Shown here: positions 1 to 63,553 of the stretch, piece by piece
Layout of the letters: each line of letters opens with the position of its first letter
How positions within the stretch are numbered: the stretch's first letter is position 1
Source of the DNA: an uncultured Candidatus Saccharibacteria bacterium
GTDB taxonomy: Bacteria; Patescibacteriota; Minisyncoccia; Phycocordibacterales; JAACPR01
Direction: 5' to 3'
NCBI GenBank assembly: GCA_964538855.1
Contig: CAZIEY010000002.1
Coordinates: forward strand, 153,007-217,006
DNA length: 64,000 nucleotides
The notes under the pieces: generated by a model
The model's input: the letters and a program-made list of their open reading frames with translations, nothing else
Told to the model about the DNA's origin: nothing
The model's database searches: none
Position numbers and translations under genes: made by a program

Positions 1-58
1 TACACTCGCATTATTAAATTGCCTTTGCGAAAGAACGACGCTACCAAAATGGCTCAAA

Positions 59-421
59 TTGAATTTGTATAATTTTATGGAAAAAATCATTGACGCAAAA
101 AACAAAAAGATTGGACGAGTCGCAAGCGCGGTGGCGAAAATTCTCCTTGGTAAAGACCAACCTGATTTTCAGAATCACGTCGTAGCTGATGTAAAAGTAA
201 TCATCAACAATGCTTCTCTTTCTGATGTTTCTGACAAGAAAAAGGGAACTACTACATACGAACGATACAGCGGATACCCAGGCGGTATCAAAATGGAAAG
301 CATGTCTCGTGTAATCGAGAAGAAAGGTTTTGCCGAAGTTTACAAACAAGCCGTCTACGGTATGCTTCCTCCAAATCGATTGCGAAAGGAACGCATGAAG
401 AATTTAACAGTAAACGAATAA
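59..421 (+). CDS. rplM: 50S ribosomal protein L13
   Basis: 120-aa ORF; N-terminal KKIGRVASAVAKILLGK... pattern typical of L13; immediately followed by S9 (conserved rplM-rpsI pair). Confidence 0.9.
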   Translation: MNLYNFMEKIIDAKNKKIGRVASAVAKILLGKDQPDFQNHVVADVKVIINNASLSDVSDKKKGTTTYERYSGYPGGIKMESMSRVIEKKGFAEVYKQAVYGMLPPNRLRKERMKNLTVNE

Positions 422-425
422 TACG

Positions 426-830
426 ATGGCAAAATCAGCAGAAAAATACATTGAATCAGTAGGACGACGCAAAACTGCAATCGCTCGAGTACGACTTACT
501 CCGGCTGCAAAGCAAAATTTTGTGATCAACGGAAAATCTCTCAAAGATTTCTTTACAGTTGACGCCCTCGTACGAATCGTTGAAGACGCATTTAACGTCG
601 CTGGTCTTGAACAAAAATACGCCGTTTCAGCACACGTGCTCGGAGGTGGTATCAATGGTCAAGCCGAAGCAGTTCGCCTCGGAATCGCACGTTCATTGAT
701 TAAAATCAATCTCGAATTGCGAAAGAACCTCAAAAAGGCTGGTTACCTCAAGCGAGATCCTCGAATCAAGGAACGAAAGAAGCCTGGTTTGAAGAAAGCT
801 CGAAAGGCTCCGCAGTGGTCAAAGCGTTAG
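426..830 (+). CDS. rpsI: 30S ribosomal protein S9
   Basis: 134 aa; GRRKTAIARV...; basic C-terminus ...KKARKAPQWSKR characteristic of S9. Confidence 0.9.
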   Translation: MAKSAEKYIESVGRRKTAIARVRLTPAAKQNFVINGKSLKDFFTVDALVRIVEDAFNVAGLEQKYAVSAHVLGGGINGQAEAVRLGIARSLIKINLELRKNLKKAGYLKRDPRIKERKKPGLKKARKAPQWSKR

Positions 831-835
831 TAAAA

Positions 836-946
836 CTACTTCAAAATTTAAAAGTCCTAGGGTCGCATCACGCACGTTCAGCAATGAATGTGCGTTTTGT
901 GTTGATGCTCAACCAGACATTTTAAATTTCGAAGTAGTTTGACTAT
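836..946. terminator. Long near-perfect inverted repeat (21-bp arms aaactacttcaaaatttaaaa / ttttaaatttcgaagtagttt) enclosing two nested sub-hairpins; likely rpsI operon terminator or small structured RNA
   Basis: Arms at ~837-859 and ~922-946 are reverse complements (1 mismatch); inner stems cgcacgttc/gaatgtgcg and gcatca/tgatgc seen directly. Confidence 0.4.
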
Positions 947-1024
947 TACCAGAAGGCGGTAGTTCTAAAGAAATTCTAAAGTTTTTTCTTGCCTCTGAAT
1001 AATGCGTGATGTATTTTGAGGTAG

Positions 1025-1468
1025 ATGGATAAAGATTTCAATACATGGAATACTAAGAAACAAGCAATTAACAACAAAGCACCTAATCGAGATTTATTTT
1101 TTCATCCTGGAGAATTATGGGAATGTTCGTTTGGAATTAATATTGGGGTAGAAATTGATGGAAAGAATGAAGATTATCAAAGACCTGCTTTGATAATAAA
1201 AAAGTTTAATGGAGATATGTTATGGGTTTTACCGTTGACTACAAAATTTAAAAATACAAAGTATCATTACAAATTACCTAATTCAGATATTGATACATAC
1301 GTTGTTCTATCCCAAATAAGAACTATCAGTTCAAAGAGATTGTTGCGTAGAATTGGCAGAATTGCTTCCTCAGTTTTTGACAACATTATTAAAGAGCTTA
1401 CAAAGATTCTAAATGACGAAAGCCCCCTTGCGGGAGCTTTCTCGGAGGCCGAAGCCACTAATGAATAA
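1025..1468 (+). CDS. MazF/PemK-family mRNA interferase-like toxin with ~30-aa N-terminal extension; no cognate antitoxin ORF found
   Basis: Core GELWECSFGINIGVEIDGK..RPALIIKK...WVLPLTTKFK...YVVLSQIRTISSKRLLRRIG matches PemK/MazF layout (G-D/E-h-W..F.P..G.E..G.RP.hhh...hP.T); 147 aa. Confidence 0.6.
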   Translation: MDKDFNTWNTKKQAINNKAPNRDLFFHPGELWECSFGINIGVEIDGKNEDYQRPALIIKKFNGDMLWVLPLTTKFKNTKYHYKLPNSDIDTYVVLSQIRTISSKRLLRRIGRIASSVFDNIIKELTKILNDESPLAGAFSEAEATNE

Positions 1469-1520
1469 AATATAGCAGCTCAGAGAAAAAAGTCAACTTG
1501 ATATTTTGACTGTGTTTTGT

Positions 1521-1549
1521 TTGACACCTAATTTACAGGATGGTAATGT
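1521..1549 (+). promoter_or_regulatory. sigma70-like promoter ttgaca-N17-taatgt preceding structured non-coding region
   Basis: gtTTGACAcctaatttacaggatggTAATGTttg read directly. Confidence 0.35.
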
Positions 1550-1555
1550 TTGCAC

Positions 1556-1835
1556 GTTGAGCGCAAAACGAGAAGGCTACTGATCTGGGGGGGGAAACTC
1601 TCGGATTTAGATGGTTCGAATCCATCACTCGGTTCTGTGAGCAAGCTTGGTATGTATAGAATAGGCTGGGAGCCGATGAAGTGTCAGGTCACACTGACAT
1701 AGAGGCGTCAGTGGAATACCACTCTTACCAAGCTAAAATCTATTCTGTGATATGGCATGAATCACAGGATAAGCTCGAGGATTGCTCAACTTTGCGGCAC
1801 CCTTATCTCTTGCCTTGGGTGCCGTTTTTCTATAC
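1556..1835 (+). ncRNA. Candidate structured non-coding RNA of unknown class (contains canonical tRNA T-arm gatgg-TTCGAAT-ccatc, pseudoknot-like overlapping helices, terminal hairpin+T-run)
   Basis: 414-nt ORF-free gap between the toxin-like gene and grpE; GGTTCGAATCC at 1613-1623; helices tgtcag/ctgaca, cactgac/gtcagtg, agcttggta/taccaagct; bounded by promoter and terminator. Confidence 0.35.
1795..1832 (+). terminator. Rho-independent terminator cggcaccc-N15-gggtgccg followed by TTTTT
   Basis: 8-bp GC-rich stem and T-run seen directly; sits ~20 nt upstream of grpE -35. Confidence 0.5.
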
Positions 1836-1882
1836 TCCATACTTGGTTTGAAAACCCCGCTTTTTTTGCTATAATACCCCTC

Positions 1883-2434
1883 ATGACAGACGAAATTGTA
1901 TATGAAAACGGCGACGAAGCCACAAATTCATTCGGCACAACAGCCGACGACAAGGTCGCCACACTTAAAAAGCAATTAGAAGAAGCGCTCGCGCAGAAGC
2001 AGGAATATTTGGACGGCTGGCAACGCAGCAAGGCCGACTATATCAACCTCAAAAAACGCTCCGAGGAAGAGCGTGCGAACGTGCGTGACTACGCCACCGA
2101 GGATTTTGCATTGAGCATCATTCCCGTCATCGACAGCTTTGAAATGGCGTTCAAGAATGAGAAAGCTCTCGAAAATGTTCCAAAAGTCTGGACCGAGGGC
2201 GTGAAATACATTTTCAATCAATTAATCGCAGCACTCGCGGGGTACGACATCAAACCAATCGATCCACAGGGCGAAATGTACGATGTGAATAAACACACCG
2301 CTCAGGAAATGGTCAAAGTCGATTCAGAAGCCGACAACGGCAAAATCGTCGAGGTCATTCAAAAAGGCTACGAATTCAAAGGTAAGATGATTCGACATGC
2401 GGTGGTGAAGGTGGGGGAGATTAAAGAGTTGTAG
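1883..2434 (+). CDS. grpE: Nucleotide exchange factor GrpE
   Basis: Start chosen at MTDEIVYENG (ATG 6 nt after a perfect TATAAT at 1871-1876; upstream part of the long ORF looks non-coding); coiled-coil + C-terminal beta domain typical of GrpE. Confidence 0.85.
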   Translation: MTDEIVYENGDEATNSFGTTADDKVATLKKQLEEALAQKQEYLDGWQRSKADYINLKKRSEEERANVRDYATEDFALSIIPVIDSFEMAFKNEKALENVPKVWTEGVKYIFNQLIAALAGYDIKPIDPQGEMYDVNKHTAQEMVKVDSEADNGKIVEVIQKGYEFKGKMIRHAVVKVGEIKEL

Positions 2435-2444
2435 TAGTTAAAAT

Positions 2445-3092
2445 ATGAAAAAATTTCTACGCATATTATCTTATTTAGCTCTTGGGTTAATAGTACTCTG
2501 TCTTTGCTACGGATTTTTTCTTAATCTAACACTGAAAGAACACATTGGTGCCTCGAGTCAAGAATTTTACATATCAATGCGACAGACAGATGAATTTTAT
2601 AAGCATGGTCTGTGCTCAGACATTCTCATAGTTTACCCTTGGCAAAATCCATCTCATAATCCAACGCAGGATTATTCCTCAAAAACCCACTGTGAGATGG
2701 TAGATAAAGAAAATCCTTTTGACTTTACGTACGTAAAGTCCTGGGGAAATAAGAAAGATATATCTGCTTTTGGTTATACTACCCACCCATTTACTTTAGT
2801 TAAAAAACTTTTCTTTAATAATCCATCCTCTATTTGTATTGAAGGAGTTCAGCAACCACTTCATTTACAAGAAAATATTTACTCAACGGAGTGGTTTTCT
2901 GTCAGAGGTCTAGAATATTCAATCGTTATGACAGAATCAGATAAAAATGATTGGGTAGGTATTATTAAAAATTTATCAGCAAGTAACGACAAGCCCGCAA
3001 AAGCGTTTCTTGTTAAGAAAGATAGTTGTAATAACATTAACGAGTCGGATGTATTAAAAACATATCCAATCAAATTTAATACTAATTGGTAG
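2445..3092 (+). CDS. Hypothetical protein with N-terminal transmembrane/signal segment, inserted between grpE and dnaK
   Basis: 215-aa ORF, hydrophobic N-terminus LALGLIVLCLCYGFFL; no recognisable motif. Confidence 0.5.
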   Translation: MKKFLRILSYLALGLIVLCLCYGFFLNLTLKEHIGASSQEFYISMRQTDEFYKHGLCSDILIVYPWQNPSHNPTQDYSSKTHCEMVDKENPFDFTYVKSWGNKKDISAFGYTTHPFTLVKKLFFNNPSSICIEGVQQPLHLQENIYSTEWFSVRGLEYSIVMTESDKNDWVGIIKNLSASNDKPAKAFLVKKDSCNNINESDVLKTYPIKFNTNW

Positions 3093-3139
3093 TGATAAAA
3101 GCATCTTGATTTTCTCCACATTTACCATATAATACACCC

Positions 3140-3439
3140 ATGTTCGCCCTATCCGCACAGCAAAAATACTTCCAAAAAGAAGTCGTTCTGCCAAACGGCT
3201 CAAAGGCTATTGTCTTCTTCGAGCTCGTTGAAACTAACGGCCGAATTGTTGCTCGCGCTGTTAACGTTCAAATCATTTCCGAGGCTAAGGCGTCTGCATC
3301 TGTCGTCTACCTTCCGGTTTCAATTACTCGTGCAATTTTTGCACCGGTTGTTGCTTTCTATTCAAACTATGTTGCTCCAATTGTCGAAGAACTTTCTTTC
3401 ATCACAAGCCAACCAACTCGCGCGCCATCTCTCGCTTAA
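3140..3439 (+). CDS. Hypothetical protein (99 aa)
   Basis: ORF only; position between grpE and dnaK. Confidence 0.35.
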   Translation: MFALSAQQKYFQKEVVLPNGSKAIVFFELVETNGRIVARAVNVQIISEAKASASVVYLPVSITRAIFAPVVAFYSNYVAPIVEELSFITSQPTRAPSLA

Positions 3440-3494
3440 AATTTCGTAGCTTTTTATTAACAAAGCTTTTACAAATTTTAACCTAAATAAAAAT

Positions 3495-5387
3495 ATGGCA
3501 AAAATAATTGGTATTGACCTCGGTACTACTAACTCCGCGGTTGCATTCGTAGAAGGTGGCGAACCTCGCATCATTGAAAACGTCGAAGGAAATCGCACGA
3601 CACCTTCAATCGTAGGTATTACTCGAAATAATGAACGACTCGTTGGGCAAATCGCAAAACGACAAGCGGTGACAAATCCAAAAAACACTGTCTACGGTAT
3701 CAAACGATTCATTGGACACGCGTTCGACGAACCAGCTTTGGACAAAGACAAGAAAACCGTTCCATACGAAATCAAAAAGTCTGACACAAACGGTGTGCTC
3801 GTGAAAATGGGTGACAAAGAATATCGTCCAGAAGAAATTTCGGCGATGATTTTGACAAAGTTGAAGAATGACGCAGAAGCAAAGCTCGGTGAAAAAATTA
3901 CCGAAGCAGTTATTACCGTTCCTGCATACTTCAACGACTCACAACGCCAAGCTACAAAAGACGCGGGTAAAATCGCGGGGCTTGATGTAAAACGAATCAT
4001 CAATGAACCGACTGCGGCGGCTCTTGCGTACGGCTTCAACAAAAATAAAGACGAGAAAATCGTAGTGTACGACTTCGGAGGTGGAACATTCGATATTTCG
4101 GTGCTTGAAGTTGCTGACAACGTGATCGAAGTGAAATCGACAGACGGAGACTCACATATGGGTGGACGCGACATCGATCAGAAAATCATGCGATTCATCA
4201 TCGATGAATTCAAAAAGGATACTGGAATCGATGTGTCAAAAGACGCGCTCGCGTTGCAACGAATCGACGAAGCGGCTGAAAAAGCAAAAATGGAATTGTC
4301 GACTTCAATGGAAACAGAAGTTAACATTCCATTCATCGCGACTGGTCAAAATGGTCCGGAACACCTCGTCAAAAAAATAACTCGAGCAAAATTGGAGGAA
4401 CTTTCTGCAGAATTCATTGAACGATCTATCGAAATTACAAAGCGTGCGATGGCGGCTTCTCCTTTCAAAATCAACGAAATTAACGAAGTGATTTTGGTTG
4501 GTGGACAAACTCGTATGCCAAAAATTATCGAAGAAGTGAAAAAACTTTTCGGTAAGGAACCAAACAAGGGCGTAAACCCTGACGAAGTGGTGGCAATCGG
4601 TGCTGCAATTCAAGCCGGAATTTTGCAAGGTGACGTGAAAGACGTGCTCTTGCTCGACGTGATTCCACTTTCTCTTGGAATTGAAACAATGGGAGGTGTC
4701 GCGACAAAATTGATTGAGAAAAACAAAACGATTCCAACAACGGCTTCACAAGTTTTCTCTACCGCAGCCGACAATCAGACGCAAGTCGAAATCAACATTG
4801 TCCAGGGTGAACGCGCAATGGCGGCCGACAACAAATCGCTCGGACGATTCGTGCTCGATGGAATTCCACCAGCTCCACGCGGCGTGCCTCAAGTCGAAGT
4901 AACGTTTGATATCGACGCAAACGGAATTTTGAACGTAAAGGCGACTGACAAAGCTTCTAAAAAAGAACAAACCATTCGTATTGAAGCGAGCTCGTCTCTC
5001 TCAAAAGAAGAAATTGAAAAGATGAAAAAAGACGCCGAAATGCACGAAGCCGACGACAAGAAAAAGAAAGAAGTCATCGACGCGAAAAACATGGCGGAAC
5101 AAATGGCGTACACTGCGGAAAAAGCGCTCAAAGACGCAGGCGACAAAGTGCCAGCTGATATAAAAACTTCTGTTGAAGCGAAAATCAAAGAAGTTCGCGA
5201 AGTCGCGGCAAAAGATTCACTCGACGACATCAAAAAAGTTTCGACTGAACTTTCTACAGAAATGCAGAAAATCGGTGAATTCATGAGCAAGCAAAATGCT
5301 GAAGCTCCAAAAGCTGACGCAAAAGATGCTGGCACAACTGCCGATTCAGGAAACGTTCGCGACGCGGAAGCTGAAGATAAGAAATAA
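3495..5387 (+). CDS. dnaK: Chaperone DnaK (Hsp70)
   Basis: [17 protein letters not shown]..., [19 protein letters not shown] Hsp70 signatures; 630 aa. Confidence 0.95.
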
Positions 5388-5389
5388 TA

Positions 5390-6280
5390 ATGACAAAAGA
5401 CTTCTACAACATATTGGGCGTGACAAAATCTGCGAGCAAAGACGACATTAAAAAAGCGTATCGCAAATTAGCGCATGAACATCACCCGGATAAACCCGGC
5501 GGAAACGAGGCCAAGTTTAAAGAGATAAACGAGGCATATTCTGTGCTATCTGACGACACGAAACGTGGCCAATATGATCAATTCGGACAGACCTTTAACG
5601 GTGCCGGAGGTGGTCATGGTGCGGGTGGTTTCGGAGGCTTCGGTCAAGGTGGATTCGAGGGTTTTGATTTCTCGCAATTCACGAATGGCGCGGGAGGCGG
5701 TTTTGAATTCGACCTGAACGACATTTTGGGCGGTATGTTTGGAGGAGGGCGTCGTCGCCAGCGAAAAGGTGCGGATATTTCTATCGATATTGAAATCGAT
5801 TTCAAGGATTCGATTTTAGGTGTCTCTCGCGAAATAAATTTCGCGCGTAAAACCGGTGGCACAGAACATATCAAAGTAAATGTTCCACCTGGCATCGATA
5901 GTGGAGAAATGATTCGCTACACCGGCCGCGGTGAGCAAATTCCTGATGGTCAGCCGGGCGACTTGTACGTGCGCATTCACGTGAAGCCGCATAAAAGACT
6001 TCGCAAAGAGGGGTATCATTTAGTCACAGAAGAAAAAATCACGCTTTCAGAATCAATTTTGGGAGCGAAAAAAGATATTGAATCTGTTGATGGTGTTATC
6101 ACTGTGAAAATTCCAGAGGGAAGCAAACATGGCGAAGTATTGCGCGTACGTGGACGTGGCGTACCAGTATCGACTCGTGAAGTAGGAGACTTGCTCATCA
6201 AGATTTCCGTCGAATATCCAAAAAAGTTATCAAAGAAAGCAAAAGAAGCGATAGAGATATTGCAAAAAGAGGGGATGTAA
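5390..6280 (+). CDS. dnaJ: DnaJ/CbpA-like J-domain co-chaperone lacking the CxxCxGxG zinc-finger domain
   Basis: J domain with HPD (AHEHHPDK), Gly/Phe-rich linker, C-terminal substrate-binding domains; no Cys repeats; 296 aa. Confidence 0.8.
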
Positions 6281-63225: not shown

Positions 63226-63364
63226 GTTCGTCGCGATTTATTTTATAAATTCCTAAAGATGAGACACAAAAATCCCATCACTAGGAAGACCCGAAGGTCT
63301 CTACACCAGTTTCCCGATGTAACGCGACGAACGCCCTAATGATGGGGTTTTTAAGTTCGTCGCG
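63226..63364 (-). promoter_or_regulatory. Attenuator/riboswitch-like leader with mutually exclusive helices: X1/X2 (cgcgacgaac, two copies) vs Y (gttcgtcgcg), and a 17-bp terminator helix enclosing a UUCG-capped hairpin
   Basis: Plus-strand: gttcgtcgcg 63226-35 and 63355-64; inverse cgcgacgaac 63323-32; terminator arms 63268-85 / 63334-52 with T-runs both sides; gaccUUCGggtc inner hairpin (minus-strand sense). Confidence 0.4.
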
Positions 63365-63553
63365 ATTTTGACCATATCCTTTGAAATTTCAAAGGGGTTA
63401 GGTCCAATTAATATGTAATTGTCAGGATTAAATGATACAACAAAAGCATCGTTTAATCCAGTTTAGATTATATCGCTGAACACTCTCTTTGCTAAGACTT
63501 GGTGACGACCACACTACGCTTTTCCGTGTTTGCATAGATATATTAAAAAATGT

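What the first reader, a model, noticed from the sequence alone, without database searches (positions are those of the whole stretch)
1025..1468. Solo MazF/PemK-like toxin gene without antitoxin, wedged between the rplM-rpsI operon and a structured RNA
The protein shows the full PemK/MazF core pattern and a ~30-aa N-terminal extension. The 190 nt upstream and the region downstream contain no small antitoxin ORF. Possible explanations are an orphan toxin, a toxin neutralised in trans, or an extension acting as an intramolecular antitoxin.
Basis: partly seen in the sequence, partly recalled or inferred. Interest (0 to 1): 0.5.

Follow-up and report, generated by a model that had tools for sequence, protein, structure and literature searches.

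The report
MazF toxin paired with small RNA
The supposedly partnerless MazF-type toxin gene overlaps at its 3' end a tiny, strongly conserved small-RNA gene on the opposite strand; the pair recurs as a mobile two-gene unit in hundreds of ultra-small (CPR/Patescibacteria) bacteria, and the RNA probably stands in for the missing protein antidote.

Summary
The ORF at 1025-1468 is a real PemK/MazF-family gene. It matches Pfam at E=4e-13, has a MazF fold, and keeps the catalytic Arg53 and Thr72. It carries a conserved N-terminal helix and has no protein antitoxin next to it. It is not solo, though. Its last 18 codons ('SPLAGAFSEAEATN') are conserved because they overlap a ~52-nt RNA gene on the minus strand (about 1462 to 1411). 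That gene has its own sigma-70 promoter (1496-1469), a UUCG hairpin, a near-invariant linker UCCGA, and a covarying GNRA hairpin plus U-run terminator.

All 80 related CPR genome loci carry this RNA, always convergent at the toxin's 3' end. In 44 of the 67 aligned loci it lies beyond the stop codon, so coding does not explain its conservation. Searching with the RNA alone found 105 metagenome sites. Of the 98 with enough flank, 82 have the toxin, about ten of them decayed. Another 16 have the RNA only. No neighbouring protein family recurs. The RNA matches no Rfam family.

Best reading: a MazF toxin with a small-RNA antitoxin, most likely by direct binding (type III-like), with a possible antisense contribution (type I-like). 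Function is inferred, not shown. I rate it a new variant of a known kind.

The parts
989..1017 (+). Putative promoter of the toxin gene: -35 TTGCCT (989-994), 17-nt spacer, -10 TATTTT (1012-1017). Only 7 nt lie between the -10 box and ATG 1025, so the mRNA is probably leaderless.
   Evidence: Read from the sequence. The same layout occurs in the syntenic relatives L190 and L191. In many other loci a TATAAT-like box sits 6-8 nt before the ATG. It is below the threshold of the promoter scan. This is an inference.
1025..1468 (+). MazF/PemK-family endoribonuclease toxin gene, 147 aa. N-terminal helix is residues 5-17, the MazF core is 28-129, and the C-terminal helix is 115-131. Catalytic Arg53 is at nt 1181-1183 and Thr72 at nt 1238-1240.
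   Evidence: Pfam PF02452 at E=3.8e-13. 110 homologues, and every one that carries a source name is named as Patescibacteria or an unclassified 'bacterium'. MazF fold. Catalytic residues aligned. GC is about 30% against about 44% in the neighbours.
1412..1468 (+). C-terminal tail codons 130-147 (NDESPLAGAFSEAEATNE). This is read-through into the small-RNA gene and is not a functional peptide motif.
   Evidence: The same nucleotides occur in other reading frames or after the stop codon in relatives. pLDDT over residues 131-147 is 50-59.
1469..1496 (-). Sigma-70 promoter of the small RNA: -35 TTGACT (1496-1491), 16-nt spacer with TG, -10 TATATT (1474-1469).
   Evidence: Promoter scan gives 10 of 12 matches. 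70 of 73 related loci have at least 9 of 12 matches at a fixed distance; TTGACA/T in 60 and TATACT/TATAAT in 47.
1411..1462 (-). Small RNA, about 52 nt: 5'-AUUAGUG-[P1 GGC(UUCG)GCC, + strand 1447-1456]-UCCGA (1442-1446)-[P2 GAAAGCUCCC(GCAA)GGGGGCUUUC, 1418-1441]-GUCAUUU-3'. This is the candidate RNA antitoxin.
   Evidence: Covariance model R1 gives 73.6 bits, E=6e-15, and it is the only hit in the 64 kb window. Covariation: 92.7% of cells paired against 75.5% in shuffles, with 106 double changes against 31.5. Strand evidence: 28 G.U against 7 A.C, UUCG and GNRA loops, and the U-run are all on the minus strand only. MFE is -24.1 kcal/mol, z=-3.6. No Rfam family matches.

Best explanation
The locus is a self-contained, horizontally mobile two-gene module of about 0.6 kb. 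One gene is a MazF-family endoribonuclease toxin, probably translated from a leaderless mRNA. The other is a convergently transcribed ~52-nt small RNA that overlaps or abuts the toxin's 3' end.

The RNA has a highly conserved 22-nt 5' domain (AUUAGUG, a UUCG hairpin, then CUCCGAG) followed by a generic terminator hairpin. I propose that this RNA is the antitoxin. Its conserved 5' domain would bind the RNA-binding groove of the MazF dimer as a non-cleaved or slowly cleaved pseudo-substrate, which is type III-like neutralisation. Because it is fully complementary to the 3' end of the toxin transcript, it may also lower toxin mRNA levels, a type I-like contribution.

Shown here: the toxin family, fold and catalytic residues; the RNA gene with its promoter, covarying structure, terminator and strand; the obligate co-occurrence; and the absence of a protein partner. 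Inferred: expression, toxicity, neutralisation, and the mode of neutralisation.

My probability that the RNA is an antitoxin by any mechanism is about 0.7. My probability for direct binding specifically is about 0.45.
For: (1) Toxin identity and likely activity.

(2) The conserved 'tail' is a nucleotide element. It occurs in any frame or after the stop. In the 44 loci where it is non-coding, the linker columns are 93-100% identical, while the flanks are about 50%.

(3) It is an RNA gene on the minus strand. The promoter is conserved in 70 of 73 loci. Both helices covary. G.U pairs, UUCG/GNRA loops and the U-run all fit the minus strand.

(4) Toxin to RNA: all 80 genome loci have the RNA, always convergent at the ORF's 3' end. 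That includes 13 loci held out of the model (12 with E <= 0.002, L070 at 0.011). There were no plus-strand hits at E <= 0.01 in 592 kb.

(5) RNA to toxin: of 98 metagenome sites found with the RNA 22-mer alone and having enough flank, 82 have a convergent MazF-like match. About ten of these are toxin remnants with internal deletions or truncations beside an intact RNA. Sixteen are RNA-only. So no toxin locus here lacks the RNA, but the RNA survives toxin loss, which is the classical antitoxin asymmetry.

(6) No neighbouring protein family occurs in more than 6 of 81 loci. The immediate neighbours are unrelated housekeeping genes.

(7) The primary sequence of the unpaired segments is conserved across proteins only 40-60% identical, while the terminator stem varies freely. 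This points to sequence-specific recognition rather than mere antisense complementarity.

(8) Four genomes with two modules each carry different RNA variants.

(9) There is no SD upstream of the toxin start, and the -10 box lies 6-8 nt from the ATG. The RNA's CCUCC therefore cannot act by masking a toxin RBS.
Against: There are no expression data, so transcription of the small RNA is inferred from its promoter, terminator and covariation. There is no test of toxicity or rescue.

The strictly conserved convergent, overlapping arrangement is what a cis-antisense (type I) mechanism predicts. A purely protein-binding RNA would not need it; known type III antitoxins lie upstream as tandem repeats.

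No RNA-protein interface could be modelled. The toxin's cleavage motif is unknown, so the pseudo-substrate idea cannot be checked.

Half of the protein-first loci were retrieved with a pattern (FSEAEATN) that is itself encoded by the RNA. The other half came from a pattern in the toxin core, and these also all carry the RNA.
Confidence: 0.45

Rival explanations
1. Pure cis-antisense control (type I-like). The small RNA never touches the protein. It anneals to the complementary 3' end of the toxin mRNA, or its convergent promoter collides with toxin transcription. This triggers RNase III cleavage or decay and keeps toxin synthesis low.
For: The convergent, 3'-overlapping arrangement is invariant in all 80 loci. 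No plus-strand terminator lies between the toxin stop and the RNA gene, so the toxin transcript must run through it. Known type I pairs with 3' overlap work this way (own knowledge: txpA/RatA, bsrG/SR4 in B. subtilis).
Against: Antisense pairing does not need a fixed primary sequence. Yet the unpaired 5' tail and linker are 93-100% conserved even where non-coding, across toxins only 40-60% identical. Type I toxins are small membrane peptides, with rare exceptions. RNA-only sites and extra or tandem RNA copies without a toxin mRNA persist with intact sequence.
Confidence: 0.25
2. This is not a toxin-antitoxin pair. The MazF-fold protein would be a dedicated RNA-binding or processing partner of the small RNA. 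One version: a ribonucleoprotein whose CCUCC-containing RNA targets Shine-Dalgarno-like sequences. Another: an RNA that guides or limits the nuclease to particular targets, possibly in anti-phage defence.
For: The association is tight in both directions. The linker contains an anti-SD-like CCUCC. Modules sit between essential housekeeping genes in streamlined genomes, which suggests they are tolerated.
Against: The catalytic Arg and Thr of a cleaving MazF are retained. The toxin gene decays by internal deletion while the RNA stays, which is typical of a harmful gene and its antidote. Low GC and scattered, variable insertion sites are typical of selfish TA modules. There is no PADLOC defence hit.
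Confidence: 0.15
3. One reading: an orphan toxin, either neutralised in trans from elsewhere or held in check by its own N-terminal extension. The conserved downstream element would then be only a terminator or insulator.
For: No protein antitoxin is adjacent. The N-terminal helix is conserved.
Against: The element has its own conserved promoter facing the toxin, a conserved non-terminator 5' domain, and covariation. It is on the wrong strand to terminate the toxin mRNA, since the plus strand has no U-run after the hairpin. The N-terminal extension also occurs in homologues flanked by RHH proteins.
Confidence: 0.05
4. The conserved C-terminal peptide SPLAGAFSEAEATN is a functional protein motif. 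One possibility is an acidic intramolecular MazE-like tail that occupies the active site.
For: The peptide is nearly invariant in about 50 full-length homologues and is acidic.
Against: The same DNA is read in other frames or lies after the stop codon in 44 of the 67 aligned loci. About half of the family are ~130-aa proteins without the tail. The tail has low pLDDT. The stems covary at the nucleotide level.
Confidence: 0.02

Closest known systems
MazEF / PemIK (Kid-Kis) type II toxin-antitoxin systems
   Same: The toxin belongs to the same Pfam family (PF02452), has the same fold, and keeps the catalytic Arg and Thr.
   Different: There is no MazE/PemI (AbrB or RHH) protein gene in an operon with it, here or in 80 relatives. 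It has an extra N-terminal helix, a probable leaderless mRNA, and a conserved small-RNA partner instead.
Type III toxin-antitoxin systems (ToxIN, CptIN, TenpIN; AbiQ)
   Same: An endoribonuclease toxin is paired with a small structured RNA whose primary sequence is conserved. The proposed neutralisation is by RNA-protein binding. From my own knowledge (Blower et al. 2011), ToxN resembles Kid/MazF in fold.
   Different: Type III antitoxins are tandem repeats upstream of the toxin in the same operon, are processed by the toxin, and form pseudoknots (PMC6315513). Here the RNA is a single unit, downstream, convergent, with its own promoter and terminator. It forms two simple hairpins, and there are no tandem repeats. 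The toxin is a PemK-family member, not ToxN/AbiQ/CptN/TenpN, and has no PADLOC hit.
Type I systems with 3'-overlapping convergent antisense RNAs (own knowledge: txpA/RatA, bsrG/SR4, bsrE/SR5; Fst/RNAII par)
   Same: A short RNA with its own promoter is transcribed convergently and overlaps the 3' end of the toxin transcript.
   Different: Those toxins are small hydrophobic peptides, and their antisense RNAs are poorly conserved in sequence. Here the toxin is a 147-aa RNase, and the RNA's unpaired segments are near-invariant across a phylum-level radiation.
SymE/SymR (own knowledge)
   Same: A soluble nuclease-like toxin from a protein superfamily normally seen in type II systems, controlled by a cis-antisense RNA.
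   Different: SymR overlaps the 5' end and RBS of symE. SymE has the AbrB (antitoxin-like) fold, not the MazF fold.
pemK RNA motif, Rfam RF02913 (Weinberg et al. 2017; listed as cis-regulatory)
   Same: A conserved structured RNA associated with pemK/mazF-family genes.
   Different: Rfam cmscan at E<=10 over 1380-1530 and at E<=1 over 1-6000 gives no RF02913 match. It is also absent from the distant homologue loci scanned. From memory, that motif lies upstream in the 5' UTR sense strand in other phyla. This RNA is downstream and antisense.

Membership tests
PemK/MazF toxin family (PF02452) | Sequence match to the family profile above the curated threshold | tested here: met
   50 bits against a cutoff of 23.1, E=3.8e-13, profile positions 2-109 of 109. 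PDB profile hits to S. aureus, B. subtilis, E. coli and M. tuberculosis MazF.
PemK/MazF toxin family (PF02452) | SH3-like beta-barrel MazF/Kid fold | tested here: met
   AF2 model with pLDDT 80.8 and pTM 0.75. The Foldseek top 50 are all MazF/MoxT/YdcE, with E down to 3e-8 and TM (target-normalised) 0.64-0.77.
PemK/MazF toxin family (PF02452) | Catalytic Arg (BsMazF R25) and Thr (T48) | tested here: met
   R53 in the 'RP' motif and T72 in 'PLT' align to 'GVRP' and 'AAIT' of S. aureus MazF. R53 and T72 are each conserved in at least 90% of 78 homologues. Residue roles come from PMC7354611.
PemK/MazF toxin family (PF02452) | Sequence-specific endoribonuclease activity and toxicity | not testable with these tools
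   Needs expression and cleavage assays.
Type II MazEF/PemIK system | Adjacent co-transcribed protein antitoxin (AbrB/RHH/other) | tested here: not met
   No Pfam hit for any small ORF at 815-1583. No neighbouring protein family occurs in more than 6 of 81 loci. The flanking genes are housekeeping genes such as rpoC, pheS/pheT and grpE.
Type III TA (ToxIN/CptIN/TenpIN) | Tandem-repeat RNA antitoxin upstream of the toxin in one operon, separated by a terminator | tested here: not met
   No tandem repeats in 700-1900. The RNA is single-copy, downstream and convergent. Definition from PMC6315513.
Type III TA (ToxIN/CptIN/TenpIN) | Toxin of the ToxN/AbiQ, CptN or TenpN families | tested here: not met
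   PADLOC gives 0 hits. Pfam assigns only PemK_toxin.
Type III TA (ToxIN/CptIN/TenpIN) | RNA binds and inhibits the toxin protein | not testable with these tools
   Inferred only, from the conservation pattern.
Type I TA | Cis-encoded antisense RNA overlapping the toxin transcript | tested here: met
   The minus-strand RNA at 1462-1411 overlaps ORF codons 130-147. It is convergent in all 80 loci.
Type I TA | Small hydrophobic or membrane toxin whose translation is blocked by the RNA | tested here: not met
   The toxin is a 147-aa soluble RNase. The RNA does not overlap the start region, and there is no SD to mask.
Rfam RF02913 pemK RNA motif, and all other Rfam 15 families | Match to the covariance model | tested here: not met
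   No hit at E<=10 on 1380-1530. Only sub-threshold terminator-like matches to RNAI (21.6 bits against a gathering score of 47) and ctRNA appeared.

The most novel reading that the evidence does not exclude
This would be a previously unrecognised class of toxin-antitoxin system. In it, a clade of the archetypal type II toxin MazF has no protein antitoxin at all. Instead it is neutralised by a ~50-nt stand-alone small RNA that binds the nuclease directly. The RNA's two 7-nt single-stranded arms, flanking a UUCG hairpin, could occupy the two substrate grooves of the MazF dimer. It might even mimic the toxin's cellular target, for example the anti-SD-bearing 3' end of 16S rRNA (CCUCC). The system is widespread and mobile in CPR/Patescibacteria, and may extend to N-extended MazF homologues on Campylobacterota plasmids.
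Probability: 0.4. Interest if true: 0.85.

Novelty: new variant of a known kind. Interest (0 to 1): 0.72.

Why it matters
MazF is the textbook type II toxin and is normally described with a MazE-type protein partner. A large MazF clade that depends on a small RNA would blur the type I, II and III classification. It would show that one toxin fold can switch the chemical nature of its antidote.

It would also provide a very compact (~0.6 kb) RNA-controlled nuclease module. It adds a well-supported new structured small RNA to CPR bacteria, whose non-coding RNA repertoire, as far as I know, is little explored.

There is a practical consequence for annotation. 'Orphan' MazF genes in CPR genomes, and the odd conserved C-terminal 'SEAEATN' peptide on many database proteins, are annotation artefacts caused by an unrecognised RNA gene.

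The hypothesis is directly testable with a two-plasmid rescue assay and an EMSA.

Tried and rejected
- **Rfam scans.** I scanned the region, the whole window and the distant homologue loci. No family matched, including RF02913. Weak RNAI and ctRNA matches are only terminator-like and fall far below the gathering scores.
- **ARAGORN** found no tRNA or tmRNA anywhere in the window.
- **Hammerhead or other ribozyme reading of the plus strand.** I considered this from the GAAA...CUAAUGA resemblance and rejected it. The core G is missing, there is no Rfam hit, and the strand evidence favours the minus strand.
- **A peptide encoded by the small RNA** (GUG/AUG at its 5' end; minus-strand ORF 1267-1458). 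Rejected: the start codon is absent in several variants (ACG, AGG), the frame shifts with the length of P1, and there is no Pfam hit.
- **Protein antitoxin search.** Clustering of all neighbouring ORFs of at least 35 aa within 1.5 kb, inspection of the nearest same-strand ORFs, and Pfam on the small ORFs all found nothing.
- **PADLOC defence models:** no hit.
- **Viral contigs:** the RNA 22-mer is absent.
- **First search for related loci attempt** with the broad alignment failed because it had no conserved stretch. I repeated it with closer sequences.
- **Flanking repeats.** I looked for direct or inverted repeats that would mark a transposon. Only an unrelated imperfect inverted repeat around the rpsI terminator turned up.
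- **Literature searches** for a MazF/PemK toxin with an RNA antitoxin, or for CPR toxin-associated ncRNAs, found no description. The Weinberg 2017 supplement is not held in the library.
- **Other limits.** The organism name could not be obtained from the protein cluster.

Full report
**Observation.** The window carries rplM (77-421) and rpsI (426-830), followed by a terminator hairpin (870-895). Next comes a 147-aa ORF at 1025-1468, then a 415-nt gap, then grpE (1883-2434) and dnaK (3495-5387). The gene order was confirmed against an annotated syntenic relative.

The ORF matches Pfam PemK_toxin (PF02452) at E=3.8e-13, 50 bits against a cutoff of 23.1. The match covers residues 28-129 and nearly the whole profile. 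NCBIfam gives only weak MazF/ChpB matches, and PADLOC gives none. The gene has about 30% G+C against about 44% for its neighbours, which indicates horizontal acquisition.

An AlphaFold2 model built on 78 homologues (pLDDT 80.8, pTM 0.75) shows an N-terminal helix (5-17), the beta-barrel core, a C-terminal helix (115-131), and a low-confidence tail. Its best structural matches are all MazF toxins from M. tuberculosis, S. aureus, B. subtilis and E. coli, with E down to 3e-8.

A profile search of the PDB aligns R53 ('RP') and T72 ('PLT') with 'GVRP' and 'AAIT' of S. aureus MazF. These are the catalytic Arg25 and Thr48 of Bacillus MazF (PMC7354611). Both are conserved in at least 90% of 78 homologues.

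**The unexpected feature.** The 110 homologues found are all from metagenomes or MAGs. Every one that carries a source name is named as Patescibacteria/CPR or as an unclassified 'bacterium'. About half share a C-terminal peptide, SPLAGAFSEAEATN, that is nearly invariant even where the rest of the protein is only 50% identical. That is not how protein tails evolve.

In 80 related loci fetched from GTDB species genomes, the same nucleotides appear in any reading frame, or entirely after the stop codon. The first hairpin changes by compensatory substitutions (GAAAGCCCCC, GAACCCCGCA, GGACCCACC and others).

Read on the minus strand, the element is a complete gene:
- a -35 box TTGAC(A/T), a 16-17-nt spacer, and a -10 box TATA(C/A)T;
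- about 6 nt further on, the transcript 5'-AUUAGUG;
- P1, a 3-4-bp stem closed by UUCG;
- the linker CUCCGAG;
- P2, an 8-12-bp stem usually closed by a GNRA loop;
- a tail, CGAUUUU.

In the window, the promoter is at 1496-1469 (TTGACT, 16 nt, TATATT, with a TG). The RNA runs from about 1462 to about 1411.

**Tests of the RNA gene.** An alignment of 67 copies (A3) supports both helices. In the named structure, 92.7% of cells are paired against 75.5% in shuffles. There are 106 double-change cells against 31.5. Slid controls reach at most 67% paired, and 9 of 11 pairs show changes on both sides.

The strand is settled by four observations:
- There are 28 G.U pairs in the minus-strand reading, against 7 A.C cells that would be G.U on the plus strand.
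- The P1 loop is UUCG in 50 of 67 copies.
- The P2 loops are mostly GCAA, GUAA, GAAA or GCGA.
- The U-run follows P2 only on the minus strand.

A promoter with at least 9 of 12 consensus matches sits at a fixed distance in 70 of 73 loci.

A covariance model (R1) finds exactly one hit in the 64-kb window, at 1397-1477(-), with 73.6 bits and E=6e-15. It also finds the RNA in every one of the 80 genome loci. That includes 13 loci not used to build it (12 with E <= 0.002, L070 at 0.011). The hit is always on the strand opposite the toxin and at the toxin's 3' end. There were no plus-strand hits at E <= 0.01 in 592 kb.

In the 44 aligned loci where the RNA's 5' domain lies beyond the stop codon, the linker columns are still 93-100% identical, while the flanks are about 50%. 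Coding constraint therefore does not explain the conservation. The 18-codon tail of the window's ORF is read-through into the RNA gene. Nothing in Rfam 15 matches, including the known pemK motif RF02913 (identity of RF02913).

**Association in the other direction.** The exact 22-mer of the RNA's 5' domain is absent from IMG/VR viral contigs. It occurs in 105 metagenome stretches. Of the 98 with enough flank, 82 have a convergent MazF-like match ending within 150 nt.

About ten of those 82 are remnants: toxin ORFs with internal deletions or truncations of the catalytic core beside an intact RNA. Examples are L130/L169 (a 50-aa fusion of the N- and C-termini), L105, L113/L119 and L153. L173, scored as RNA-only by tblastn, also holds such a fused remnant. 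Another 16 have the RNA but no toxin match. Extra solo or tandem RNA copies also occur next to complete modules.

So no toxin locus examined here lacks the RNA, while the RNA survives toxin decay. This is the asymmetry expected for a harmful gene and its antidote.

**No protein partner.** Clustering all ORFs of at least 35 aa within 1.5 kb in 81 loci gives no family present in more than 6 loci. The nearest same-strand genes are unrelated housekeeping genes. Examples are rpoC, pheS and pheT (the module sits between them in six genomes), helicases and grpE. The small ORFs around the window's gene have no Pfam match, and there are no tandem repeats.

The upstream regions are not conserved. They often show a TATAAT-like box 6-8 nt before the ATG. 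In the window this is TTGCCT, 17 nt, TATTTT, 7 nt, ATG, and the layout is shared with L190 and L191. This suggests a leaderless toxin mRNA.

**Mechanism.** What is shown is a two-part mobile module: an apparently active MazF-family RNase gene and a convergent ~52-nt RNA gene. What follows is inferred.

I favour an RNA antitoxin (about 0.7 overall). Within that, I favour direct binding of the conserved 22-nt 5' domain to the MazF dimer (about 0.45). The reason is that the unpaired nucleotides are under strong purifying selection across toxins only 40-60% identical, while the terminator stem drifts freely. Cis-antisense pairing does not require that pattern. Recognition by a sequence-specific RNA-binding nuclease does. 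Co-resident modules in four genomes carry different RNA variants, which is consistent with insulated cognate pairs.

The invariant convergent overlap and the lack of a plus-strand terminator before the RNA gene mean that the two transcripts are complementary over about 50 nt. A type I-like contribution is therefore plausible, and a purely antisense mechanism remains a serious rival (0.25).

A non-TA ribonucleoprotein role is possible (0.15). It fits poorly with the retained catalytic residues and the pattern of toxin decay. The orphan-toxin, N-extension and functional-peptide readings are essentially excluded.

**Comparison with known systems.** The toxin is a member of the PemK/MazF family. 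The system fails the defining feature of type II, because there is no protein antitoxin. It fails those of type III as reviewed in PMC6315513, namely upstream tandem repeats, processing, and the ToxN, CptN or TenpN toxin families. It matches type I only in gene arrangement. It therefore works most like type III or type I, but it is a member of neither as currently defined.

Four literature searches found no description of a MazF/PemK toxin with an RNA antitoxin, or of this RNA. I rate it a new variant of a known kind.

Distant homologues with the N-terminal extension occur on plasmids of Nitratiruptor and Helicobacter. They also have two hairpins right after the stop, but with RHH-type ORFs nearby. 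They are not detected by R1. Whether an RNA partner is older than the CPR clade is open.

**Caveats.**
- No transcript evidence is available.
- Half of the protein-first loci were retrieved through a peptide pattern that the RNA itself encodes. The other half came from a pattern in the toxin core, and these also all carry the RNA.
- E-values from R1 are rough.
Its CPR affiliation is inferred from the homologue distribution.

Noticed in passing
window 1497-1848 (RNA body about 1553-1838, + strand): This ~350-nt stretch is absent from the closest syntenic relatives, where the small-RNA promoter directly abuts the grpE promoter. It holds a plus-strand RNA gene with its own promoter (TTGACA at 1521, 17 nt, TAATGT ending at 1549) and its own terminator (GGCACCC...GGGTGCC plus T5). 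MFE is -103.7 kcal/mol, z=-4.1. It has a T-arm-like hairpin, GATGGTTCGAATCCATC, at 1610-1626. There is no Rfam or ARAGORN hit. It is conserved next to the toxin and small RNA in metagenome contig L121, with a compensatory change in that hairpin. Its identity is unknown.
   Followed up: partly
window 63286-63404 (-): LOOT RNA (Rfam RF03000), 77.7 bits against a gathering score of 46.4. It is the only Rfam family above threshold in the whole window.
   Followed up: no
window 828-945: An imperfect inverted repeat with 43-nt arms (828-870 and 903-945, 77% complementary) encloses the rpsI terminator hairpin (870-895). It is absent from the relative L190. It may be a small inserted palindromic element.
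   Followed up: no
L028, L034, L046, L050, L065, L075 (near 4000-4500); L003, L012: The toxin and small-RNA module is inserted between pheS and pheT in six different CPR genomes, and just after rpoC in two. It sits between rpsI and grpE in the window and its close relatives. This looks like recurrent insertion into intergenic gaps of housekeeping operons, and no recombinase was seen nearby.
   Followed up: partly
L003 4462-4548; L063 4456-4540; L009 3198-3284; L039 3874-3952; L008 606-708: Additional copies of the small RNA, solo or in tandem, lie next to complete modules. All are in the same orientation. They may be relics of earlier insertions at the same spot.
   Followed up: no
L186 (Nitratiruptor plasmid) 1881-1940; L195 (Helicobacter plasmid) 1396-1450: Distant MazF homologues with the N-terminal extension (31-38% identity) also have two hairpins immediately after the stop. 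In L186 there is a minus-strand TTGCAT, 17 nt, TATAAT promoter. These loci also have RHH-type small ORFs nearby: 1955-2143 in L186 and 657-878 in L195. They are not detected by model R1.
   Followed up: partly
L128, L164, L163 (metagenome sites with solo small RNA): Some toxin-less copies of the small RNA sit beside other addiction or mobilome genes. By eye these are a RelE/ParE-like ORF, an XRE-type HTH ORF, and a RhuM-like ORF. This suggests small TA or mobilome islands. The ORFs were not checked against profiles.
   Followed up: no
window 1025-1060 versus 1408-1420: The conserved toxin 5' codons (..AAAGAUUUUGAU.., encoding K-D-F-D) contain GAUUUU. This could pair with the AAAAUC that precedes the P2 complement at the 3' end of the same mRNA in most loci. 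A hok-like 5'-3' fold-back is conceivable, but the pairing is only 6 bp and may be coincidence.
   Followed up: no
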